From: an uncultured Legionellales bacterium | GTDB lineage: Bacteria; Pseudomonadota; Gammaproteobacteria; Eutrophobiales; Eutrophobiaceae | DNA: 64,000 bases | Assembly (NCBI GenBank): GCA_913045195.1 | Contig: CAJWQR010000002.1 | Location: forward strand, 13,209 to 77,208 | Direction of reading: 5' to 3' | Part shown: positions 10,495 through 60,700 of the stretch, in pieces | How the letters are laid out: every line of letters starts with the position of its first letter | How positions within the stretch are numbered: the first letter of the stretch is position 1 | Made by a program: the position numbers and the translations under genes | The notes under the pieces: model-generated | Database searches by the model: none | The model's input: only the letters and a program-made list of their open reading frames with translations | Told to the model about the DNA's origin: nothing

Positions 10495-11355
10495 GTGTAT
10501 GTGGGTTTAAAACATTTTATGAACAGAAGAATATTATTTTTACTACTCACATTAATTGCTAGACCAGTTTTAGCTGATGGCCATTTACCTGATTCAGAAT
10601 ATTTTAAGGTATGCGCTGACCCTTATATGTTGCCCATGTCCAATCAAGACGGCGAAGGATATGAGAATAAAATTGCTGAACTTTTAGCCAACAAGCTGGG
10701 TTTAAAACTAAAGTATGAGTTTTTTCCACAACGCATCGGTTTTATCAGAAATACCCTAAGAGCAGAATCAGATAGCGGGTCAGGTTATAAATGCGATATC
10801 GTTATTAACGTTCCTTCCAGTTTTGAGTTAGCCGCTACAACTGACCCTTATTACACAACATCATACGCGCTTATCTACGCAAAGGGACGTAATTTAGATT
10901 CAGTTACAGACCCGATGATGCTATTAGATGTTGTAAAGACAAGTAAAGATAAAATAAAAATTGGATTAAGTGATATAGGCGCTGCTCAATTATGGGTATT
11001 TTATAATGGATTAATGTCTTATATGACTCCTTATCAAGGGCAGCCAGGAGACCCAAAGGCTAATCCTAATAAAAAACTAATTGATGAAGTTGTAGCAGGT
11101 AATATCGATGCAACTGTTGTTATGGGCCAAGCAGCGGGATATTGGGCAAAACAATACAAAGACAAGGTTGAACTGATTGTATTACCCTTGAAAGATGACC
11201 CGAAAAAGAAGTTACGGCTTACCTATAGTTTTTCGATGGCTGTGCGACACAGAGAAAAAGCCTGGAAAGAAACGATTAATAAATTGATTAAAGAAAATAA
11301 AACAGAGATTGATGATATTTTAATTGATTACAACATACCACTAATAAAGCAGTAG
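10495..11355 (+). CDS. xoxJ: Quinoprotein-dehydrogenase-associated periplasmic binding protein (MxaJ/XoxJ family)
   Basis: PBP type-3-like with the conserved KVCADPYMLPMSNQDGEGYENKIAELLANKLG...YKCDIVI pattern of MxaJ/XoxJ. The real start is probably the internal Met at about 10519 (MNRRILFLLL signal peptide). Confidence 0.65.
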   Translation: MYVGLKHFMNRRILFLLLTLIARPVLADGHLPDSEYFKVCADPYMLPMSNQDGEGYENKIAELLANKLGLKLKYEFFPQRIGFIRNTLRAESDSGSGYKCDIVINVPSSFELAATTDPYYTTSYALIYAKGRNLDSVTDPMMLLDVVKTSKDKIKIGLSDIGAAQLWVFYNGLMSYMTPYQGQPGDPKANPNKKLIDEVVAGNIDATVVMGQAAGYWAKQYKDKVELIVLPLKDDPKKKLRLTYSFSMAVRHREKAWKETINKLIKENKTEIDDILIDYNIPLIKQ

Positions 11356-12192: not shown

Positions 12193-15021
12193 CTATGACC
12201 CGTATAGATATTTAACATCCGACACTCTATTTCCCTTATTTTTATTATTAATCAAATCGCCTGGGCGTTGACCTTTTCGTAATTTTACAGCGCAGTATTT
12301 AAATTCTGGAATTTTTCCAATAGGGTCTAATGCTTCGTTTGTAAGCAGATTAGCCGCTGCCTCATTAAATGAAAATGGCATCATGACAACACCTTTTTGC
12401 ATGCCTTCATCTGCACGTGTTGTCGCTGCAATTTTTCCTCTTCGAGACTCAATGACAAGCATATCCCCAGATTTTAGTGAAAATAATTTAAGATCTTCAG
12501 GATTAATTAATATACATGGCCCTGGTTCGATAGCATCAAGCACTCGTGAATGACGAGTCATTGTTCCGGTGTGCCAATGTTCAAGCTGTCTTCCTGTGAT
12601 AAATACAAATGGGAAATCATTATTGGGAAGTTCAGCAGGTTCCGTGTAATCTGCAGCAATAAAACTTCCCTTTCCGTCTTGAGTTGGAAATATACCATCT
12701 TTAAAAATAATGGGTTCACCAGGGTCGCCAACATTGGTTAATGGGTAGGTGAGTGAGTCAACCTTTTCTAGTCTTTCCCAGGTAATTCCAGCCATACTTG
12801 GTGTCGCAACCCTTATCTCATTAAATACATCTTTTGTAGCCTTATAATTCCAATTAAGACCCATACGATTAGCAATTTCTTGAATGATCCATAAATCTTG
12901 TTTTGCCTCACCAGGTGGCTCAACAGCTTGCCTTCCTAATTGAACACGTCGATCAGTATTTGTAAACGTGCCATCTTTTTCAGGAAATGCAGAAGCAGGT
13001 AATATTACATCGGCATAACCACATGTTTCCGTAAAGAAGATATCTTGAACAACCATATGATCAAGTTTTGAGAGTGCATTTCTAGCGTGATTCAGATTAG
13101 GATCAGACATTGCTGGATTCTCACCCATGACATAAAGCCCATTAATATCTTTGTTGTAAATCGCGTGCATAATTTCCACAATTGTTTTTCCATTATTTGG
13201 GTCTAGTTTTTGACCCCAAAGTTTTTCAAATTTCTTTCTAATTGTAGAATCAGTAACAGGTTGGTAGTCGGGGTAGACCATAGGAATTAAACCTACATCA
13301 GACGCTCCTTGAACATTATTTTGTCCTCGTAAGGGATGTAGCCCCGTACTTTCACGACCAATTTGTCCGGTCATCAGCGCAAGTGAAATTAAACAGCGTG
13401 CATTATCAGTACCATGAATATGTTGGGATATACCCATACCCCAAAATATAATTGATGACCCTGATGTTGCATAAAGTCGAGCGACTTCCTTAATTACATT
13501 TACATCAATTCCACAAATCGGAGATACTTTTTCAGGTGAATAATTTTTAACTGTTTCAATAATTTTTTCAAAGCCATTGGTATGTTCATCAATGAATTTT
13601 TTATTGTGTAAGTTTTCATTGATAATAACGTGCATCATTGCATTTAGTAAAAGCACATCTGTGCCTGGTCGTAATTGTAAGAAATGACTTGAGTGCAGGG
13701 CAATATCAGAGTTATAGGGCTCAATAATAATAAGCTTGCTACCGCGTTCAGATGCATTTTTTAAAAATGTTGCAGCTACTGGATGATTTTCGTGCGGTCT
13801 TGCACCAATAACAATAATAACGTCAGCGTATGAACCGTCTGAAACTTGATTTGATACAGCCCCCGAGCCAATAGTTTCTAGCAAAGCAGCAACAGATGAA
13901 GCATGGCATAATCTTGTACAGTGATCGACGTTATTTGTTCCAAAACCTGATCTAACTAATTTCTGCACTAAATAAGCTTCTTCATTACTTCCTTTAGCAC
14001 AACCAAAACCCGCAAGAGATTGCGAGCTTTTATTATTTTTAATTTTATTAAAACCTTCAGCTGCAAAATTTAATGCTTCATCCCATGTTACCTCACGAAA
14101 AAACTTATGCATATTTTCACGCGTAACTAATTCGGATGTTTTTTTAGAATTTTCTCGCCTAATCATTGGTTTCTTTAAACGATCAGGGTGATGGATATAA
14201 TCAAATCCATAGCGTCCTTTAACGCATAATCGACTTTTATTCGCAGGACCATCTCTACCATCCACATATTGAATGCGATTATTTTTTATATTAAACGAGA
14301 GCAAGCAGCCAACACCACAATAAGGACAAACAGAATCAACTTTTTTATCAGTTTTGACCAAACCAACATTTTTTGCAGGCATTAGTGCACCTGTTGGACA
14401 GGCTTGGACGCATTCACCGCAGGCCACACAGGTACTTTCGCCCATAGGCGCATCCATATCAAAAACAATCTTTGAATGTTTGCCTCGAAAAGCATAACCA
14501 ATAACATCATTTACTTGTTCTTCACGGCATGCGCGTACGCAACGGGTACATTGAATACAGGCGTCGAGATTTACAGCAATTGCAGGATGTGACACATCAT
14601 TACGGATTTTCTCTCTTTCTTCGAAACGAGGATTGTAAAGGGAAAGTTTTTCTGCCCAGTGATCTAGCTCTGAATTAATTTTATAGGGTGACTTTCCTTG
14701 TTGTGGCATGTCTGAAAGCAGTAACTCTAATACCATTTTTTGAGATAAACGAGCTCTCTTATTTGCGCTATTAACCTTCATGCCTTCAGTTGGTTTTCGA
14801 CAGCATGATGGTGCTAGAACACGTTCACCTTCAATTTCAACAACACAGGCACGACAATTACCATCAGAGCGATATCCGTTCTTATAACAAAGATGAGGGA
14901 TTTCTACATTATTGCGTTTAGCAGCTTGGAGAATTGTTTCATCACCAAAAGAGGTGATTTCTTTATTGTCTAAACTAAAGCTTATTATTGTTTCGTTTTC
15001 TTGTTCTGGGTTGGCGGCCAC
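12193..15021 (-). CDS. fdsA: NAD-dependent formate dehydrogenase alpha subunit (molybdopterin, FdsA)
   Basis: 942 aa. N-terminal 2Fe-2S and 4Fe-4S NuoG-like domains (HLCY...CRACVVE; CIQCTRCVRAC). Then a molybdopterin oxidoreductase domain and a C-terminal MGD-binding domain. GTG start; overlaps fdsB by 37 nt. Confidence 0.9.
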   Translation of the reverse strand: MAANPEQENETIISFSLDNKEITSFGDETILQAAKRNNVEIPHLCYKNGYRSDGNCRACVVEIEGERVLAPSCCRKPTEGMKVNSANKRARLSQKMVLELLLSDMPQQGKSPYKINSELDHWAEKLSLYNPRFEEREKIRNDVSHPAIAVNLDACIQCTRCVRACREEQVNDVIGYAFRGKHSKIVFDMDAPMGESTCVACGECVQACPTGALMPAKNVGLVKTDKKVDSVCPYCGVGCLLSFNIKNNRIQYVDGRDGPANKSRLCVKGRYGFDYIHHPDRLKKPMIRRENSKKTSELVTRENMHKFFREVTWDEALNFAAEGFNKIKNNKSSQSLAGFGCAKGSNEEAYLVQKLVRSGFGTNNVDHCTRLCHASSVAALLETIGSGAVSNQVSDGSYADVIIVIGARPHENHPVAATFLKNASERGSKLIIIEPYNSDIALHSSHFLQLRPGTDVLLLNAMMHVIINENLHNKKFIDEHTNGFEKIIETVKNYSPEKVSPICGIDVNVIKEVARLYATSGSSIIFWGMGISQHIHGTDNARCLISLALMTGQIGRESTGLHPLRGQNNVQGASDVGLIPMVYPDYQPVTDSTIRKKFEKLWGQKLDPNNGKTIVEIMHAIYNKDINGLYVMGENPAMSDPNLNHARNALSKLDHMVVQDIFFTETCGYADVILPASAFPEKDGTFTNTDRRVQLGRQAVEPPGEAKQDLWIIQEIANRMGLNWNYKATKDVFNEIRVATPSMAGITWERLEKVDSLTYPLTNVGDPGEPIIFKDGIFPTQDGKGSFIAADYTEPAELPNNDFPFVFITGRQLEHWHTGTMTRHSRVLDAIEPGPCILINPEDLKLFSLKSGDMLVIESRRGKIAATTRADEGMQKGVVMMPFSFNEAAANLLTNEALDPIGKIPEFKYCAVKLRKGQRPGDLINNKNKGNRVSDVKYLYGS

Positions 15022-16688
15022 TTTTCAAATTCCTCAGGAAAATATCTAATCGCACATCTAACTGGGTTTGGCGCCGCCTGCCCTAAACCACATATTGATG
15101 CATCACACATCGCGATAGAAAGTTCTTCTAATAAGTCTTTATCCCATTCCTCTTTTTCCATCAATTGTATCGCTTTTGATGTCCCAACGCGACAAGGAGT
15201 GCATTGGCCGCATGATTCATGCTCAAAAAAGCGCATTGAATTAAGGGCCAGCCCTTTAACTTTGTCTTTATCAGAAAGCACGATTATAGCTGCTGAACCA
15301 ATAAAACAGCCATGTTTTTGTAATGTATCAAAGTCCAATGGCTCATCTCCAAGCGATGCTGGCAAAATTCCGCCCGATGCTCCGCCGGGGTAATAGCCAT
15401 AAAATTTCTGACCATCAAGCATTCCGTCACAATATTCATCTATTAGCTCTTTTATACTGATGCCCGCAGGAGCCAGATGGACTCCAGGTTTTTTAACACG
15501 CCCGCTAACTGAAAATGAGCGGAGACCTTTTCGTTCACGACGACCATTAGATGAAAACCAATTTGGACCTTTTTCAATAATATCTCTAATCCAATGCAGG
15601 GTTTCCATATTCTGTTCTAGAGTAGGGCGTCCAAAAAGTCCAACTTCAGCAACATAGGGAGGACGTAAACGAGGCATACCAGGTTTTCCTTCGATAGATT
15701 CAATCATCGCAGATTCTTCACCACATATGTAAGCCCCTGCTCCTCTTCTTAAATGTATTGTTGGTAGTTTACATGGAGGCATCGTTTTAATTTTATCTAA
15801 TTCTTTTTCTAACAACATCCTGCAGCCCGCATATTCATCTCTTAGATAAATATAAATATCATCTGCTTCAATCGCCCAGTGAGCGATTAGCGTTCCTTCA
15901 ATAAAACGATGCGGATCATTTTCAAGGTAATAACGGTCTTTAAAGGTGCCGGGCTCGCCTTCATCAATGTTAATAGCAATCAATTTAGGTGATTTTTTTT
16001 CACTTAAAATGCGCCATTTTTGACCCGTTGGAAAACCCGCACCACCTAAACCTCTTAACGAAGAGTCCTCAAGTAATTTTATTATATCTTCACGTTTATA
16101 TTTTCCGTCAATACAGTCGATAAGTGTTTTATAGCCACCATTATTTTTGTAAGCATCATAATCAATATAAGATTTAGGTAGTGAGTCCGATAATTTATTT
16201 TTACTAAGCGCAGAAAGAACAGTTTTTACCTCAGCATGTTCTACGGGGTATGTTCCAGTAAGAGCAACCGGTGCCGCAGCACATCTTCCAACACAGGGAA
16301 CAGGTTGAACGCGAATTGTTTTTGAATCTGTTGCTAATTTTAATTCCTTTATTAATTTCTTAGCACCAAACATTTCACAAGTAACCGATTCACAAACACG
16401 TATAGTAATATCTGGAGGAGGAGCTTCTTTTTCATTTATGACATCGAAGTGATGATAAAAAGTTGCTGTTTCATAAACTGCTGCCATAGATAAATTCATT
16501 ATTTTTGCAAGCGCCATAATATGACGACTTGATATGTGGTGATAAGTGTCTTGGATTTTATGCAGGTGTTCTATAAGCATATCTCTCTTAATAGACTCAC
16601 TATCAATTAGTTTTTCTAATTGAGAAATACAATTTTTGTCTATGACTCGACCGGAGATACGACCTTTTTTTCCACGAGTTCTTTTCAT
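14985..16688 (-). CDS. fdsB: Formate dehydrogenase diaphorase subunit, fused FdsG (NuoE-like) + FdsB (NuoF-like)
   Basis: 567 aa. N-terminal thioredoxin-like 2Fe-2S domain (CESVTCEM...CVGRCAAAP). Then a NuoF-like NAD/FMN/4Fe-4S domain (GLRGLGGAGFPTG; ESCGQCTPCR). Confidence 0.85.
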   Translation of the reverse strand: MKRTRGKKGRISGRVIDKNCISQLEKLIDSESIKRDMLIEHLHKIQDTYHHISSRHIMALAKIMNLSMAAVYETATFYHHFDVINEKEAPPPDITIRVCESVTCEMFGAKKLIKELKLATDSKTIRVQPVPCVGRCAAAPVALTGTYPVEHAEVKTVLSALSKNKLSDSLPKSYIDYDAYKNNGGYKTLIDCIDGKYKREDIIKLLEDSSLRGLGGAGFPTGQKWRILSEKKSPKLIAINIDEGEPGTFKDRYYLENDPHRFIEGTLIAHWAIEADDIYIYLRDEYAGCRMLLEKELDKIKTMPPCKLPTIHLRRGAGAYICGEESAMIESIEGKPGMPRLRPPYVAEVGLFGRPTLEQNMETLHWIRDIIEKGPNWFSSNGRRERKGLRSFSVSGRVKKPGVHLAPAGISIKELIDEYCDGMLDGQKFYGYYPGGASGGILPASLGDEPLDFDTLQKHGCFIGSAAIIVLSDKDKVKGLALNSMRFFEHESCGQCTPCRVGTSKAIQLMEKEEWDKDLLEELSIAMCDASICGLGQAAPNPVRCAIRYFPEEFEKWPPTQNKKTKQ

Positions 16689-16701
16689 AATTAGTGGTTG
16701 A

Positions 16702-18084
16702 TTATTTAATTACTGAGAGCATCTCTTCGATGTAAGTGTATTTTTCACGAGGTTTACCTTTAGGTTCTCCGAGTTCTACTTCTTTGTCGTCAATCTGTGA
16801 CCACTCAGAAAAATTGACATGGCGTACATTTCTATTGTTTAGTTTTGCATATATTTCTTTAGTGCCATACTTTTTTTCTCCAGTATCTAATTTTTCTATA
16901 TCATTTAGTAGATTTGCAACTGTTTCTACGCTACAAGCACGGTTAGTTCCGATAATGCCACTTGGCCCACGCTTTATCCAGCCACCAGTATAGAGTTGAT
17001 TAACTATAGTACCGTCATTTTCAGTGACTCTTCCTTTTTCATTTGGGATTGTGCCCCAGCTTTCATGGAAGGGTACACCTGATATTGGAACGCCATGATA
17101 GCCAATGCTACGAAATAATATACCTGTATTAATTTCAAATATTTCATTAGTTCCTTTAGCTGATTGCTTAAAAGGTTCACCGGATAATTCATTTTTTTCG
17201 AGGATTAATTTTTCTATTTGAGTATTTCCAATTATTTCTTGCGGCCCCATTAGAAATCTAAAAAAGCATTTTTTTGATTTACTGGAATCTAACTCGCGTT
17301 TAGAAAATTCACAAAATTGATCATAGACTTTTCTATTAGTCCTATTAGTTTTTTCTTCTAATTCTTTTTTGCTTTCATCATTTAACTGTAAATCATCTTC
17401 AAGAATAATTGGATTACAATCAGATAATTCTCCGAATTCACGTAATTCTTTAGGTGTAAATTTTGCTTGCGCAGGTCCGCGACGTCCGATTACATGGATT
17501 TCTTTTAATTTGCTTTCTGCTAAAACATCTAATGCATGTTGTGCAATATCAGTATGCTTTAATTCGTCAACAGTTTTCGAAAGTATTCTACTAACATCAG
17601 CTGCAACATTACCTTGTCCTATTATGACAGCAACATCTTGAGAGAGGTTAAATTTTAATTCTCTATAATCAGGATGACCATTATACCAACCAACAAATTC
17701 TGTTGCGGTGTGACTCCCTTTGAGATCTTCGCCAGGTACACCAAGTTTTCTATCTGTTTCAGCGCCATATGCAAGAATGACTGCATGATGTGTTTTACGT
17801 AATTCTTCAATAGAAATATCTCTTCCGACCGCTACGTTTGCGATAAGATTAAAATGGGGGCTGTCTGCAATTTTTTTATAGAGATTGATAGCGGTTTTTA
17901 GTTTTGGATGATCTGGTGCAACACCACTTCGAACAAGGCCATAAGGGGAGGGGAGACGTTCAATAATATCCACATCTACTTCAAATTCTGATTTTATCAG
18001 TGCTTCTGCGGCATAAAACCCGCTCGGACCAGAACCTACTATCGCTACTAATAATGGATTTTCACTAGTTCCAAGTTTAGCCAT
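16702..18084 (-). CDS. FprA-type (adrenodoxin-reductase family) NADPH:ferredoxin oxidoreductase
   Basis: 460 aa with an N-terminal FAD Rossmann motif VAIVGSGPSGFYAA and a second NADP motif IIGQGNVAADV. Overall similar to mycobacterial FprA / glutamate-synthase-beta-like reductases. Confidence 0.75.
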   Translation of the reverse strand: MAKLGTSENPLLVAIVGSGPSGFYAAEALIKSEFEVDVDIIERLPSPYGLVRSGVAPDHPKLKTAINLYKKIADSPHFNLIANVAVGRDISIEELRKTHHAVILAYGAETDRKLGVPGEDLKGSHTATEFVGWYNGHPDYRELKFNLSQDVAVIIGQGNVAADVSRILSKTVDELKHTDIAQHALDVLAESKLKEIHVIGRRGPAQAKFTPKELREFGELSDCNPIILEDDLQLNDESKKELEEKTNRTNRKVYDQFCEFSKRELDSSKSKKCFFRFLMGPQEIIGNTQIEKLILEKNELSGEPFKQSAKGTNEIFEINTGILFRSIGYHGVPISGVPFHESWGTIPNEKGRVTENDGTIVNQLYTGGWIKRGPSGIIGTNRACSVETVANLLNDIEKLDTGEKKYGTKEIYAKLNNRNVRHVNFSEWSQIDDKEVELGEPKGKPREKYTYIEEMLSVIK

Positions 18085-18087
18085 AAC

Positions 18088-18335
18088 TTAGAAATCCACC
18101 CATAGAAAAGCGATTTCATTAATACTAAAACTTAAAGTTATTATTTTACTTTTTTGTTGTGAATTGGCGGCCATTTATAAATTTCCAAAAAAATTTTAGA
18201 TTGTACATTATCGGTTTGGCGCCGCCTGTCCTAAACCGAAAATTAATGTTTCAAATTATTATGATTGATGGTTCTTTTATACGGTATTCCTTTATTTTTT
18301 CATTAATTGTATCGCTTTTGATGTTTGAACGCGAC
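18088..18335 (-). pseudogene. Decayed remnant of an fdsB 3' end plus fdsA 5' end (duplicate of the 14985-15200 junction)
   Basis: Nucleotide blocks TTGGCGGCCA, GGTTTGGCGCCGCCTGyCCTAAACC and AATTGTATCGCTTTTGATGT..AACGCGAC are shared with 15001-15200. The minus-strand translation gives RVQTSKAIQLMKK* / GLGQAAPNR* (compare FdsB RVGTSKAIQLMEKE / GLGQAAPNPVR) and MAANSQQKSKIITLSFSINEI...* (compare FdsA MAANPEQENETIISFSLDNKEI). Several in-frame stops. Confidence 0.6.
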
Positions 18336-18336
18336 T

Positions 18337-18642
18337 TTATAAACCTAGTTCTGCTTTACGTTCCTCGGCCCCAGGCAAAGGGTCCATTTGTTCTTCAATG
18401 ACCGGAAGTTCTGCTGCCTTTTGAGCATTGATTTCTATCCAGTGTTCTTGATCCTCAGGGATATCATCACCCTCATAAATCGCCTCAACGGGGCATTCTG
18501 GAACACATGCACTACAGTCAATACAAACTTCTGGGTCAATGTATAACATCTCGTCATCATAGTGAAAGCAAGCAACCGGACACACAGATACACAATCAGT
18601 GAATCGACAGCCTTTACAATTATCAGTTACGATTGTTGTCAT
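18337..18642 (-). CDS. fdxA: 7Fe ferredoxin ([3Fe-4S][4Fe-4S], FdxA/FdI type)
   Basis: 101 aa. The motifs TDNCKGCRFTDCVSVCPVACF and CIDCSACVPECP match Azotobacter FdI-type ferredoxins. Confidence 0.8.
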   Translation of the reverse strand: MTTIVTDNCKGCRFTDCVSVCPVACFHYDDEMLYIDPEVCIDCSACVPECPVEAIYEGDDIPEDQEHWIEINAQKAAELPVIEEQMDPLPGAEERKAELGL

Positions 18643-18692
18643 CGTTTCCTCCTCTACCTCATTGGGTAGTTCCTCTAGGTGATAGTACTATT

Positions 18693-19511
18693 TTATTTGC
18701 TTTTATTTGTTGATAAAAGGATTTCTCCACGATTTAATTCAACTGAATCACCGCTCCAACGCTCAAAGGAATTATTCAAATATGACGAATCAATTGAAAA
18801 ACCATTTTTTTCTAGATAACTAACATAAAATTTAATAAATGAAGGCTGGTATTCACAATTACGAGAAAATGTGGGAAGTAATTTGGCTTTATTAAAACTA
18901 ATAATAGAACCACGCTTCATTCCAGCCCCCGTCCGTATACCCATCCTACCTAAAACAATGATTGTCCCAGCCAACATGTTAACTCCTGTGAAATCACCGG
19001 AATCTCCTCCAACAGCAATCAAACCTCGACGCATAACATGACCGGTTTCATTTTTCACATTACCATGAACAATGATTTCGCCTCCTTGCATACCAATGGC
19101 GCTTCCACGGTATCCACTACCAGTCATATGACCTGCATTTCCTTTAACTACAATTTTTCCACCTTGCATTTCTGCAGCTAACCAATCAGAAGCATTACCC
19201 TCAATTATAATTTCACCACCCCGCATTCCAGCTCCAGTATGCAAACCAATATTACCTTCCACTGTAATTTTACCAAATGACATTGAAGCACCCACATGTT
19301 TAATATTTGATAAATCACCATCAATATTTATCTCGCCATCGAAGCTTCCATTACATTCAAAAAATTCACCGAGTTCTACTTGTCGATTTCCATGAAAAAC
19401 AGTCATAGCAGTGATTTCATTATTTTTCAAAGATTGTACTATGTCAGGACAAATACAGTCAGCTTCTAATGGTACTTCGGGTTGGGTATGTAATTTAAGA
19501 TGAAGTGGCAT
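18693..19511 (-). CDS. fhcC: Formyltransferase/hydrolase complex subunit C (FwdC homologue)
   Basis: 272 aa of repeated GxxG / G-rich beta-helix repeats (GNIGLHTGAGMRGGEIIIEGNASDW...), typical of FwdC/FhcC and the glutamate-synthase C-terminal domain. Confidence 0.85.
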   Translation of the reverse strand: MPLHLKLHTQPEVPLEADCICPDIVQSLKNNEITAMTVFHGNRQVELGEFFECNGSFDGEINIDGDLSNIKHVGASMSFGKITVEGNIGLHTGAGMRGGEIIIEGNASDWLAAEMQGGKIVVKGNAGHMTGSGYRGSAIGMQGGEIIVHGNVKNETGHVMRRGLIAVGGDSGDFTGVNMLAGTIIVLGRMGIRTGAGMKRGSIISFNKAKLLPTFSRNCEYQPSFIKFYVSYLEKNGFSIDSSYLNNSFERWSGDSVELNRGEILLSTNKSK

Positions 19512-60342: not shown

Positions 60343-60490
60343 GGCTAGAGAACCCCCTAAAAAATATATTGAAGATTTTTATTATTTATTATGTTTTTTT
60401 GAATCAGTTCTAATTGTTGTATATTAAATGACCGAGAAAGCACTTTATTTGATTGGAGATAGGATAAACAGTATTATCATTAATTGAAAG

Positions 60491-60700
60491 CACTAGGTGC
60501 CAACTGTTTTTTTAAATATGACAGTTGTGTTAAACGGGAAGTCAGTCAAATCCTGACGCTGCCCCCGCAACGGTAGACGAGTTAAAAATCATTCAAAATG
60601 TCACTGTACTAGTTGAAGTAAGAGAGTATGGGAAGACGAATGATTTATGTAAAACATACTCGTAAGCCCGGAGACCGGCCTTAAATTTCAGAAAAAACAT
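60491..60700 (+). promoter_or_regulatory. Cobalamin (B12) riboswitch
   Basis: AAACGGGAAGTCAGTCAAATCCTGACGCTGCCCCCGCAACGGTAGAC matches the conserved core (GGGAA...AAaTCC...GCnGnCCCCGCnAC.GTA). AAGCCCGGAGACCGGCC matches the B12 box (AGCCAGGAGACCTGCC) with compensatory changes. It sits in the 5' leader of a TonB-dependent receptor. Confidence 0.75.

What the first reader, a model, noticed from the sequence alone, without database searches (positions are those of the whole stretch)
18088..18335. Decayed duplicate of the fdsB-3'/fdsA-5' junction between the ferredoxin gene and the FprA-type reductase gene
The 250-bp spacer between fdxA (stop 18337) and the fprA-like gene (start 18084) is not random sequence. 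It is a diverged copy, roughly 70% identical in blocks, of the region 14985-15200 where live fdsGB ends and fdsA begins. Translating the minus strand gives recognisable but stop-riddled FdsB C-terminus (RVQTSKAIQLMKK*, GLGQAAPNR*) and FdsA N-terminus (MAANSQQKSKIITLSFSINEI...*). Homology ends exactly at the ferredoxin stop codon on one side and 3 nt before the fprA-like start on the other. This marks an old recombination, insertion or replacement event that placed the fdx/fprA/fdsGBA block here, most simply by homologous recombination within an ancestral fdsB-fdsA. In the remnant the FdsA start is ATG and directly follows the FdsB stop. In the live copy it is GTG with a 37-nt overlap, so the remnant also independently supports the unusual live fdsA start.
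Basis: seen in the sequence. Interest (0 to 1): 0.65.

Follow-up and report, generated by a model that had tools for sequence, protein, structure and literature searches.

The report
Gene-junction relic reused as fprA leader
The 250-bp spacer really is an old partial copy of the fdsB/fdsA gene junction, but parts of it have been kept by selection, most likely as a short upstream reading frame that feeds ribosomes into the neighbouring fprA-like gene.

Summary
Window 18335-18112 (minus strand) aligns to the live fdsGB-3'/fdsA-5' junction at 15193-14956 with score 137, against 19.5±2.4 for shuffles. Nothing else in the window matches, so it is not a generic repeat.

In about 60 relatives fdxA-fprA already sits between fhc and fds, separated by 10-60 nt, so the copy did not place that block here. 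It was inserted once, on the stem of a small clade of uncultured marine gammaproteobacterial methylotrophs. That same branch also lost a second fwd/fhc-like BADC gene set between fprA and fdsGB.

The copy is not simply decaying. Across nine diverged remnants, three nucleotide blocks are nearly invariant while 4-fold sites in flanking genes are near saturation. The fdsB' half is full of stops. The fdsA' half stays open for 26-33 codons from the old fdsA ATG, with no peptide conservation, and stops 3 nt before or 8 nt into the fprA start.

The best reading is an exapted, translationally coupled leader ORF that carries a copy of the fdsA initiation module. The mechanism is inferred, not shown. 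The live GTG start of fdsA is supported by homology to ATG in remnants, sister lineages and outgroups.

The parts
18085..18336 (-). Whole fdxA-fprA spacer (252 nt). It is a partial duplicate of the fdsGB-3'/fdsA-5' junction, inserted into an ancestral spacer of about 25 nt.
   Evidence: Searches give the alignment and shuffle control. Searches show orthologous remnants of 196-263 nt in L001/L171, L081/L164, L161/L175-178, L162, L163, L172, L173 and L174.
18175..18335 (-). fdsB'-derived half. It is no longer coding, with stops and frameshifts in every lineage.
   Evidence: in the ancestral frame the first stop falls at codons 3-19 in all nine remnants; stops occur in all three frames.
18306..18336 (-). 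Conserved block 1 (AGTCGCGTT..N..AAAAGCGATACAAT), directly after the fdxA stop.
   Evidence: columns are about 90-100% identical across nine remnants, whereas 4-fold sites are 47-50% identical in deep pairs; the same conserved/variable pattern appears at synonymous sites of the live copy.
18213..18237 (-). Conserved block 2 (GGTTTAGGACAGGCGGCGCCAAACC). It can form a local hairpin GGUUU/AAACC, and its loop GGCGGC is complementary to GCCGCC in block 3.
   Evidence: pairing holds in 100% of cells in 13 sequences, with two G-C to A-U compensatory changes. This is suggestive only.
18166..18179 (-). Conserved block 3 (TATAAATGGCCGCC), covering the old fdsA start codon and codons 2-3.
18088..18174 (-). 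Upstream ORF derived from the fdsA 5' end. It has 28 codons (MAANSQQKSKIITLSFSINEIAFLWVDF) plus TAA, and its stop lies 3 nt before the fprA ATG.
   Evidence: no premature stops in 262 codons over nine remnants, against 52 in 512 codons in the other frames; 6-11 stop-creating substitutions expected, none seen; no codon-position periodicity.
18095..18101 (-). G-rich Shine-Dalgarno-like element (GGGTGGA) for fprA, lying inside the 3' end of the uORF.
   Evidence: the equivalents in other lineages are GGAGG, GGGGGG, AGAGA and GGGTAGG, placed 10-16 nt upstream of the fprA start.
16702..18084 (-). FprA-like NAD(P)-binding flavoprotein gene, the gene served by the leader.
18337..18642 (-). fdxA (7Fe-type ferredoxin), the upstream neighbour.
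   Evidence: NF045490, E = 1.9e-34.
16689..16701 (-). fprA-fdsGB junction (13 nt). This is the scar of the deletion of the second fwd/fhc-like BADC gene set (about 4.8 kb in relatives).
14956..15193 (-). Live source segment: the last ~70 codons of fdsGB and the first ~22 codons of fdsA. The fdsA start is GTG at 15021, overlapping fdsGB by 37 nt.
   Evidence: 4-fold sites in fdsGB are 71% invariant in the last 63 codons, against 4-38% elsewhere in the gene (Fisher p = 1e-5, codons 497-567 vs the rest).

Best explanation
Origin (shown). About 240 nt spanning the end of fdsGB and the start of fdsA were copied once into the short ancestral fdxA-fprA spacer. This happened on the stem of one small clade of uncultured marine gammaproteobacterial methylotrophs. 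On the same branch a second fwd/fhc-like BADC gene set between fprA and fdsGB was deleted.

Fate (shown). The fdsB' half lost its reading frame. Three nucleotide blocks and the openness of the fdsA'-derived frame have been kept by purifying selection through a divergence that has nearly saturated synonymous sites.

Function (inferred). The copy works in cis on the polycistronic fhc-fdxA-fprA-fds mRNA as a transplanted translation-initiation module.
1. Ribosomes start at the old fdsA ATG, which keeps a remnant of the old SD.
2. They read a 26-33-codon leader whose peptide is irrelevant.
3. They terminate 3 nt before, or 8 nt inside, the fprA start.
4. This couples fprA translation to the leader. 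In the window, L161 and L162 the coupling would be by termination-reinitiation. In L001, L173, L172/174 and L081 it would also work by melting a hairpin that buries the fprA SD and start codon.

Shared control (more speculative). Blocks 2 and 3 (GGCGGC / GCCGCC) can form the same helix in the live junction. The tail of fdsGB there shows strong synonymous-site constraint. The module may therefore put fprA under the same translational control as fdsA.
For: Homology and uniqueness.

Single origin:
- All remnants share their boundaries and derived states (CAAACA, TATAAATG).
- Remnant-bearing loci are monophyletic in the FhcC, FprA and FdsGB trees.

Ancestral layout without the remnant: about 60 relatives.

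Selection on the blocks:
- Deep pairs are 0.47-0.50 identical at 4-fold sites (random expectation 0.32), while block columns are 0.9-1.0 identical. Inter-block sequence is 0.5 or lower, or deleted as in L081.

Selection on the open frame:
- No premature stops in 262 codons, against 52 of 512 in the other frames.
- 6-11 stop-creating substitutions are expected on the tree, giving P(none) of 2e-3 to 1e-5.
- uORF length differences within each stop class are multiples of 3 (84/90 nt; 85/91/94 nt).
- The fdsB' half of the same age is stop-riddled in every lineage.

Not a peptide: identity at codon positions 1/2/3 is 0.81/0.71/0.79, against 0.74/0.83/0.67 in the live fdsA N-terminus.

Coupling geometry:
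- The uORF stop is at -3 or +8 relative to the fprA start in 9 of 9 remnants.
- An SD- and AUG-sequestering hairpin lies inside the uORF 3' end in 5 of 9 remnants, z = -1.4 to -2.9.
- L172 and L174 even use GTG for fprA.

Helix: GGCGGY:GCYGYC and GGUUU:AAACC pair in 100% of cells in 13 sequences, against 18-54% when slid, with two compensatory changes.

Live copy: 14 of 23 4-fold sites in the fdsGB tail are invariant, against 23 of 148 in the rest of the gene (Fisher p = 1e-5).

Precedent: uORF-mediated coupling is described in PMC5574718, and the steep distance dependence of reinitiation in PMC10666635.
Against: - There are no expression data, so translation of the uORF and its effect on FprA are untested.
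- The SD in front of the uORF is weak in the window (GGAAA) and absent in L161 (GAAAA).
- The SD-masking hairpin is not predicted in the window, L161, L162 or L163 (z about 0).
- The opening energy of the fprA initiation region is not clearly higher than in one type I control, L169.
- The whole-spacer fold is not better than shuffles (z = -0.8).
- Helix support rests on two compensatory changes and several G·U changes in about 9 lineages. 10 of 500 shuffles reach the observed value, and this is not a probability.
- An 8-nt overlap is not the commonest (-4/-1) reinitiation geometry.
- Block 1 has no explanation in this model.
- The lineages are related, so the stop-count statistics overstate independence. 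The tree-based estimate partly corrects for this.
Confidence: 0.6

Rival explanations
1. Neutral relic. The spacer is a non-functional pseudogene fragment that is simply decaying, and its similarity between genomes reflects shared ancestry only.
For: The fdsB' half is stop-riddled and indel-rich. GC has dropped to 29%, against 40% in the source. L081 has lost about 55 nt of it. There is no Rfam family and no promoter or terminator consensus.
Against: - The blocks are nearly invariant while 4-fold sites in the flanking genes of the same genomes are near saturation.
- The uORF is open in 9 of 9 remnants, although 6-11 stop gains are expected.
- The remnant is retained in every type II lineage of an AT-rich genome with very short spacers elsewhere in the operon.
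- The L081 deletion removes exactly the inter-block stretch and spares blocks 1-3.
Confidence: 0.08
2. Gene conversion. The remnant is kept similar to the live junction by recurrent conversion from the live copy 3 kb away, not by selection on the remnant itself.
For: The conserved blocks coincide with the most conserved parts of the live copy. Homologous recombination is clearly active in this population.
Against: - Remnant-specific states next to or inside the blocks are shared by the remnants and differ from every live copy: CAAACA against GGGACA, TATAAATG against AAAA(A/G)TG, and a 1-nt deletion.
- Remnants do not track their own genome's live copy. For example the window remnant has GGA and its live copy GGG.
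- Identity tracts are only about 25-30 nt long.
Confidence: 0.04
3. Small protein. The fdsA'-derived ORF encodes a functional 26-33-aa peptide.
For: The ORF is open in all lineages and starts with a conserved MAA followed by a lysine-rich stretch. One gene caller annotated it in L163.
Against: There is no codon-position periodicity. Amino-acid identity between deep lineages is 33-58%. Length varies from 26 to 33 codons. The C-terminus is set by where the fprA start lies.
Confidence: 0.06
4. Binding-site or RNA-element module without uORF coupling. Blocks 1-3 would be sites for a trans-acting regulator, or a structured RNA that acts on stability or processing of the fdxA-fprA mRNA. A CsrA-type protein is one possibility: a GGA sits in the block-2 hairpin loop and another at the leader SD. 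In this model the open frame is a side effect.
For: Blocks are conserved in both the live and the remnant copies. Pairing is consistent across sequences. GGG has become GGA in the block-2 loop in 8 of 9 remnants. Block 1 is unexplained by the coupling model.
Against: It does not explain why the frame stays open and always ends at the fprA start. The CsrA idea rests on remembered consensus only and was not tested. No known RNA family matches.
Confidence: 0.2
5. One reading: the remnant is the scar of the recombination or replacement that brought the fdx/fprA/fdsGBA block to this position.
For: A partial duplicate of a junction is what such an event could leave behind (inference only).
Against: - fdxA-fprA lies between fhcBADC and the fds genes in essentially all relatives, with a short spacer and no remnant.
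- The window's FhcC, FprA and FdsGB group with the same relatives.
- The remnant's sequence is derived from the clade's own live copy, sharing 7-10 of 18 ingroup-specific states.
Confidence: 0.02

Closest known systems
Short gene relics (pseudogene fragments) in bacterial intergenic spacers, as described for reduced genomes such as Rickettsia (from my own knowledge; no paper checked here)
   Same: It is a truncated paralogous copy of coding sequence sitting between two live genes. It has lost its frame (the fdsB' half), is AT-enriched, and has suffered indels and a partial deletion.
   Different: Half of it keeps an open frame, and three blocks are under purifying selection across lineages that are saturated at synonymous sites. 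It is a local partial duplicate of a gene that is still intact 3 kb away, not the residue of a lost gene.
uORF-mediated translational coupling in bacterial leaders: the iraD leader ORF controlled by CsrA (PMC5574718), the mgtA intergenic small ORF (PMC8092293) and S. meliloti uRBS/uORFs (PMC13285730)
   Same: A short ORF whose stop overlaps or abuts the main start codon. The peptide is not conserved. In 5 of 9 lineages an RNA structure masks the main gene's SD and would be opened by uORF translation.
   Different: Here the uORF sits inside an operon, between two cistrons, rather than in a 5' leader. It is demonstrably derived from the 5' end of another gene of the same operon together with that gene's upstream sequence. 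No experiment supports it.
Termination-reinitiation at overlapping or closely spaced cistrons (PMC10666635)
   Same: The uORF stop lies within -8 to +3 nt of the fprA start, the range where reinitiation is efficient. The ancestral 25-nt gap, and still more a 250-nt insert, would abolish coupling to fdxA according to that paper.
   Different: The usual overlaps are -4 or -1. Here the geometry is a +3 gap or a -8 overlap. In this case the upstream partner is a leader and not a subunit gene.
Leader-ORF plus pseudoknot activation of rep genes in IncI-alpha/IncB plasmids (repY-repZ) (from my own knowledge; not checked here)
   Same: A hairpin loop rich in GGCG that can pair with a downstream CGCC-type sequence near a start codon, combined with an obligatory leader ORF.
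   Different: The sequence, context and origin are unrelated. In this case the pairing partner is codons 2-3 of the leader itself, not the region upstream of the main gene. The resemblance is mechanistic only.
Leader-peptide transcription attenuators (trpL type)
   Same: A short non-conserved leader ORF upstream of a regulated gene.
   Different: There is no run of regulatory codons and no terminator or antiterminator pair. The leader's stop is tied to the next start codon, which points to translational rather than transcriptional control.

Membership tests
Partial gene duplicate / gene relic | Statistically significant nucleotide homology to a live gene in the same genome | tested here: met
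   Score 137 against 19.5 ± 2.4 for shuffles; blastn E = 5e-22
Partial gene duplicate / gene relic | Loss of the parental reading frame (stops and frameshifts) | tested here: met
   The fdsB' half has stops in the ancestral frame in 9 of 9 remnants. The fdsA' half is truncated but still open.
Partial gene duplicate / gene relic | Neutral evolution after inactivation | tested here: not met
   The blocks and the uORF frame are conserved far above the 4-fold-site baseline.
Dispersed repeat (REP/MITE-like) | Multiple copies at unrelated sites | tested here: not met
   The only other copy in the 64-kb window is the live junction. Long spacers in other relatives are unrelated.
Translationally coupled upstream/leader ORF | Start codon with a ribosome-binding site | tested here: inconclusive
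   ATG is invariant in 9 of 9 remnants. A G-rich SD remnant (GAGGG, GAGGT, GGGAA, AAGGA, GGGGG) is present in most, but it is weak in the window (GGAAA) and absent in L161.
Translationally coupled upstream/leader ORF | Stop codon overlapping or within a few nt of the downstream start | tested here: met
   The stop ends 3 nt before the fprA start in the window, L161 and L162. It ends 8 nt inside fprA in L163, L001, L173, L172, L174 and L081.
Translationally coupled upstream/leader ORF | Frame conserved but peptide not | tested here: met
   No premature stops in 262 codons, with P(none) of 2e-3 to 1e-5 on the tree. There is no codon periodicity and amino-acid identity is 33-58%.
Translationally coupled upstream/leader ORF | Downstream initiation region masked by structure that uORF translation would open | tested here: inconclusive
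   A hairpin burying the fprA SD and AUG is predicted in 5 of 9 lineages (z = -1.4 to -2.9) but not in the window's subgroup.
Translationally coupled upstream/leader ORF | Demonstrated translation of the uORF and dependence of the downstream gene on it | not testable with these tools
   This needs Ribo-seq, toeprinting or reporter fusions.
Known cis-regulatory RNA families (Rfam 15) | Covariance-model match | tested here: not met
   No match at E ≤ 1 in window 14500-19000 apart from a chance miRNA hit elsewhere.
Structured RNA element (conserved helix) | Base pairs supported by compensatory changes beyond phylogenetic expectation | tested here: inconclusive
   100% of cells pair in 13 sequences. 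There are two compensatory pairs and five G·U one-sided changes. 10 of 500 shuffles reach the observed value. There are too few independent lineages.
Independent transcription unit (sRNA or antisense RNA) | Own promoter and terminator | tested here: not met
   No sigma-70-like promoter or intrinsic terminator inside the spacer on either strand. This is a consensus scan only.

The most novel reading that the evidence does not exclude
A complete translational-control module was duplicated from the fdsGB/fdsA junction to the front of fprA and then kept for a long time. The module comprises a structured RNA element embedded in the last ~65 codons of fdsGB, plus the fdsA ribosome-binding site, start codon and first codons. 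As a result two genes of one operon obey the same post-transcriptional switch, possibly through a trans-acting RNA-binding regulator or through ribosome-dependent unfolding. This would be a clean natural case of cis-regulatory module duplication by partial gene duplication in bacteria, with coding sequence turned into regulatory RNA.
Probability: 0.3. Interest if true: 0.7.

Novelty: new variant of a known kind. Interest (0 to 1): 0.55.

Why it matters
Gene relics are normally treated as junk on its way out, especially in compact AT-rich marine genomes. Here, one half of a relic has decayed while the other half has been kept as an open, non-peptide-conserving reading frame locked onto the next gene's start, together with three invariant nucleotide blocks.

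If the coupling model holds, it shows how a rearrangement scar can be turned at once into working translational 'wiring'. It would also reveal that the 3' end of fdsGB carries an RNA-level signal controlling fdsA.

For annotation, there are three practical points:
- The live fdsA start (GTG, with a 37-nt overlap) is fixed by homology.
- The unannotated 28-codon ORF should be flagged.
- This clade has lost a second formylmethanofuran-dehydrogenase-like gene set, which bears on how these methylotrophs route C1 electrons through FdxA and FprA.

Tried and rejected
1. Generic repeat. Rejected: there are no other copies in the window.
2. Rejected by the comparative layout and gene trees.
3. Gene conversion as the cause of block conservation. 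Rejected because of remnant-specific shared states.
4. Type III loci (L165/L166: short spacer, no BADC2) as the evolutionary intermediate between the ancestral and remnant-bearing layouts. Rejected: L165 is a recombinant. Its fprA nt 1-1000 is L167-like, nt 1001 to the deletion junction is L171-like, and fdsGB is L167-like again. The order of 'BADC2 deletion' and 'copy insertion' therefore stays unresolved.
5. Known RNA family. None found.
6. Internal promoter, terminator or antisense unit. None found by consensus scan.
7. Whole-spacer RNA stability. Not better than shuffles (z = -0.8).
8. Functional small protein. No coding periodicity.
9. Recurrent insertion hotspot. Long fdxA-fprA spacers in distant relatives are unrelated to fds/fhc genes, and some hold inverted repeats.
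10. Block-1 hairpin (GUCGC/GCGAU). It is broken in L161-163 and L081, so it is not supported (seen).
11. Mechanism of the duplication. Tandem duplication followed by deletion, and one-step templated insertion, give the same product. Junction microhomology (possibly 'GT') is too short and too decayed to decide between them.
Full report
**1. The observation**

On the minus strand the window reads fhcB-A-D-C (23540-18693), fdxA (18642-18337), a 252-nt spacer (18336-18085), an FprA-like flavoprotein gene (18084-16702), the NuoE/NuoF-fusion fdsGB (16688-14985) and fdsA (15021-12193).

- A local alignment pairs spacer 18335-18112 with 15193-14956, the last ~70 codons of fdsGB and the first ~22 of fdsA. 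It has 179 matches, 41 mismatches and 22 gap columns. The score is 137, against 19.5 ± 2.4 (maximum 32) for 500 dinucleotide shuffles.
- blastn of the spacer against the whole window finds only that site (E = 5e-22; next best E = 0.018), so it is not a generic repeat.
- The spacer is AT-enriched: 29% GC, against 40% in the source segment and 36% in the window.

**2. Comparative context**

I used the FprA-like protein to fetch loci from genome representatives, from metagenome contigs and, through 12 homologues, from a larger assembly collection.

*Ancestral layout.* In roughly 60 relatives with enough flank, the layout is fhcBADC, fdxA, a 10-60 nt gap, fprA, a second and divergent fwd/fhc-like BADC set (25-53% identical to Fhc proteins), then fdsGB and fdsA. 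The pair fdxA-fprA is therefore ancestral at this position.

*Three layouts among the closest relatives (FprA ≥81% identical):*

| Type | Layout | Loci |
|---|---|---|
| I | Ancestral: 25-nt spacer, BADC2 present | L082=L167, L168, L169, L170 |
| II | Remnant of 196-263 nt; fprA followed after 11-17 nt by fdsGB; no BADC2 | window, L161, L162, L175-178, L163, L171, L173, L081/L164 (L001, L172 and L174 carry the remnant but their contigs end before the fprA-fdsGB junction) |
| III | 26-nt spacer, no remnant, no BADC2 | L165, L166 |

*Order of events.* In NJ trees of FhcC, FprA and the FdsGB N-terminus, all type II loci form one clade. Its sister clade holds types I and III. L165 is a recombinant. 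Its fprA nt 1-1000 is 89-99% identical to type I L167. From nt 1001 through the deletion junction it is 89-98% identical to type II L171, and its fdsGB is L167-like again. So the BADC2 deletion happened once and was later carried into a type I background by homologous recombination, without the remnant. The copy insertion and the BADC2 loss both map to the type II stem, and their order cannot be resolved.

**3. Age and source of the copy**

- All remnants begin 1-2 nt after the fdxA stop with AGTCGC.
- They share states that differ from every live copy. Examples are CAAACA where live copies have GG(G/A/T)AC(A/G/T), TATAAATG where live copies have AAAA(A/G)TG, and a 1-nt deletion before the ATG.
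- Of 18 sites fixed differently between ingroup and outgroup live copies, the remnants carry the ingroup state at 7-10 and the outgroup state at 3-5. The latter are all A/T where the ingroup live copies have G/C.

The copy was therefore made from the clade's own live junction, late on the stem, before the type II lineages radiated.

**4. The live fdsA start**

- Outgroup live copies read ...GAATAATGG: the FdsGB stop TAA overlaps the fdsA ATG.
- All ingroup live copies have lost that stop. FdsGB runs 11 codons further, which creates the 37-nt overlap.
- L161, L162, L173 and L175-178 still have ATG. The window, L167 and L081 have GTG.
- The remnants have ATG.

The window's GTG at 15021 is therefore the homologue of an ATG start everywhere else. 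Whether the remnant's TAA is the ancestral stop is undecidable.

**5. The copy is not decaying neutrally**

*Blocks.* Between deep type II lineages, 4-fold degenerate sites in fdxA and fprA are 0.47-0.50 identical, and composition alone gives 0.32. In the same genomes three blocks of the spacer are almost invariant:
- block 1 AGTCGCGTT...AAAAGCGATACAAT (18336-18306);
- block 2 GGTTTAGGACAGGCGGCGCCAAACC (18237-18213);
- block 3 TATAAATGGCCGCC (18179-18166).

The stretches between them are 0.5 identical or lower, full of indels, and in L081/L164 deleted outright.

*Gene conversion is excluded.* The remnant-specific states sit next to or inside the blocks, and remnants do not follow their own genome's live copy.

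*Recent exchange of the spacer is excluded.* Conserved and decayed stretches alternate on a 25-60-nt scale.

**6. The fdsA' half is a conserved open frame**

- In all nine distinct remnants an ORF starts at the old fdsA ATG and runs 26, 26, 28, 30, 30, 30, 32, 33 or 33 codons. It stops either 3 nt before the fprA start (window, L161, L162) or 8 nt inside it (L163, L001, L173, L172, L174, L081). In the second case it uses the TAA created by fprA codons 2-3.
- There are no premature stops in 262 codons, against 52 in 512 codons in the other two frames.
- On an NJ tree of the uORF region, 117-168 substitutions are inferred, and 5.4-6.7% of possible substitutions would create a stop. That gives 6-11 expected stop gains and none observed, so P is about 2e-3 to 1e-5.
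- The distance from the uORF ATG to the fprA start takes the values 84, 85, 90, 91 and 94 nt. Within each stop class the differences are multiples of 3.
- The fdsB' half has the same age and origin, yet it has stops in its ancestral frame in every lineage.
- The uORF shows no coding periodicity. Identity at codon positions 1/2/3 is 0.81/0.71/0.79, against 0.74/0.83/0.67 for the live fdsA N-terminus. Amino-acid identity between deep lineages is 33-58%.

What is conserved is the act of reading through to the fprA start, not a peptide.

**7. How it most likely works**

There is no promoter or terminator consensus in the spacer on either strand and no Rfam family. The spacer is therefore probably part of the fhc-fdxA-fprA-fds mRNA.

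*Why a leader would matter.* A 250-nt insert would uncouple fprA from fdxA. Experimental work shows that reinitiation collapses at gaps of about 20 nt (PMC10666635). A leader ORF that ends at -3 or +8 restores a terminating ribosome at the fprA start.

*Structure around the fprA start.* In L001, L173, L172/L174 and L081 the last ~45 nt of the uORF fold into a two-tier hairpin. It pairs the fprA SD (GGAGG, GGGGGG or AGAGA) and the start codon with upstream pyrimidine-rich sequence (z = -1.4 to -2.9). Translation of the uORF would necessarily open it. L172 and L174 even have a GTG start for fprA. This is the design shown experimentally for the iraD leader ORF (PMC5574718). In the window's own subgroup no such hairpin is predicted (z about 0), and only the termination-reinitiation geometry applies.

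These steps are inferred. Nothing here shows translation.

**8. Blocks 2-3 and the live copy**

- Block 2 can form a local hairpin (GGUUU/AAACC). Its loop GGCGGC is complementary to GCCGCC, which is codons 2-3 of the leader and, in the live copy, of fdsA.
- In 13 sequences (9 remnants and 4 live copies) all 143 cells pair, against 18-54% when the partner is slid. There are two G-C to A-U compensatory changes (L081, L163). The one-sided changes in the GGCGGC:GCCGCC helix are all C to U (four independent), giving G·U; the local stem adds an A to G (L081) and a C to U (L001), also G·U. 10 of 500 shuffles reach the observed value.
- An alternative 13-bp long-range helix pairs in 94.7% of cells.
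- This is consistent with structure but is not proof. The whole spacer does not fold better than shuffles.
- More telling is that the live fdsGB gene shows nucleotide-level constraint in exactly the segment that was copied. Among four deep lineages, 4-fold sites are invariant at 14 of 23 positions in codons 497-567, against 23 of 148 in the rest of the gene (Fisher p = 1e-5). These positions use rare G/C-ending codons (GCG GCG, GCC GCC), and the conserved/variable pattern matches that of the remnants.

This suggests the 3' end of fdsGB carries an RNA-level signal for fdsA initiation, and that the remnant is a retained copy of that module. Block 1 remains unexplained.

**9. How the copy arose**

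Two routes give the observed product:
- a tandem duplication of fprA(-BADC2)-fdsGB-fdsA', followed by deletion of the first fprA through most of fdsGB;
- a one-step templated insertion during repair.

The junctions are too decayed to discriminate, apart from a possible 'GT' microhomology at the left edge. No intermediate (remnant plus BADC2, or a tandem duplicate) was found in the loci available.

**10. Comparison with known systems, and novelty**

Gene relics, uORF-mediated coupling and termination-reinitiation are each well known. I found no report of a leader ORF derived from a duplicated gene junction. Literature searches for gene remnant or pseudogene together with translational coupling returned only generic uORF papers. 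That is a limited search of open-access text, not proof of absence.

I rate this a new variant of a known kind. The origin and the selection are well supported. The mechanism is plausible but untested.

**11. Verdict**

- Observation confirmed.
- Confidence: about 0.95 for the origin, about 0.85 for purifying selection on the blocks and the frame, about 0.55-0.6 for leader-ORF coupling of fprA, and about 0.3 for a shared regulatory module with fdsA.
- Interest: 0.55.

Noticed in passing
window 15800-14700 (3' half of fdsGB and start of fdsA), compared with L082/L167: Nucleotide identity to the type I locus L082/L167 rises to 90-98% here, against about 75-84% over the rest of the shared locus. 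L081 stays at about 80% throughout. This looks like a recent homologous-recombination tract between lineages with different layouts.
   Followed up: partly
L165:7001-8862 and L166: These are mosaic loci. fprA nt 1-1000 is L167-like (type I), nt 1001 to the fprA-fdsGB junction is L171-like (type II), and fdsGB is L167-like again. The BADC2 deletion allele was transferred by recombination without the remnant.
   Followed up: yes
window 16689-16701; relatives such as L167:3220-8058: The window's clade has lost a whole second fwd/fhc-like BADC gene set (about 4.8 kb, 25-53% identical to FhcBADC). In nearly all relatives this set sits between fprA and fdsGB. The metabolic consequence for FdxA/FprA was not examined.
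   Followed up: partly
window 14985-15021: The FdsGB stop codon present in outgroups (TAATG) is lost in the whole ingroup. FdsGB gains 11 codons (WPPTQNKKTKQ) and overlaps fdsA by 37 nt. The fdsA start is ATG in L161, L162, L173 and L175-178, but GTG in the window, L167 and L081.
   Followed up: yes
window 14985-15175 (last ~63 codons of fdsGB): There is strong local synonymous-site constraint. 71% of 4-fold sites are invariant in four deep lineages, against 4-38% in other parts of fdsGB, and rare GCG/GCC codons are used. This points to an RNA-level signal inside the coding sequence.
   Followed up: partly
window 18643-18692 (fhcC-fdxA spacer): This 50-nt spacer is 45/50 identical to L001, although 4-fold sites are only 49% identical. 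It contains the repeated motifs CCTAGAGGAACTACC and GGTAGAGGAGG, possibly a structured ribosome-binding region for fdxA.
   Followed up: no
L172:4001 and L174:1465: In these two lineages the fprA-like gene starts with GTG instead of ATG, with the leader ORF stop overlapping it.
   Followed up: no
L171:4083-4124 (protein P0027): A gene caller extended FprA by 14 codons, to 474 aa, from an in-frame ATG inside the remnant. Other lineages lack that ATG, so it is probably an annotation artefact.
   Followed up: partly
L013:6602-7000, L023, L084 and L031 (fdxA-fprA spacers of distant relatives): These spacers are long (160-400 nt) and contain internal inverted repeats. Some are shared between L011, L013, L014, L016 and L023. 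They are unrelated to fds/fhc genes.
   Followed up: no
window 60478-60697 (+): Cobalamin riboswitch aptamer (RF00174, 93.7 bits, E = 5e-22). It is the only Rfam family above gathering score in the window, and no tRNA genes were found.
   Followed up: no
window 10495-11355 (+) and L161:15252-15383: The neighbourhood carries methanol/PQQ-dehydrogenase-associated genes, including a MoxJ-like periplasmic binding protein. In relatives there is also a PQQ-repeat dehydrogenase and a cupredoxin. This is consistent with a methylotrophy island in an uncultured marine gammaproteobacterium. The nearest MAGs are labelled Thiotrichaceae or Legionellales by their depositors.
   Followed up: no
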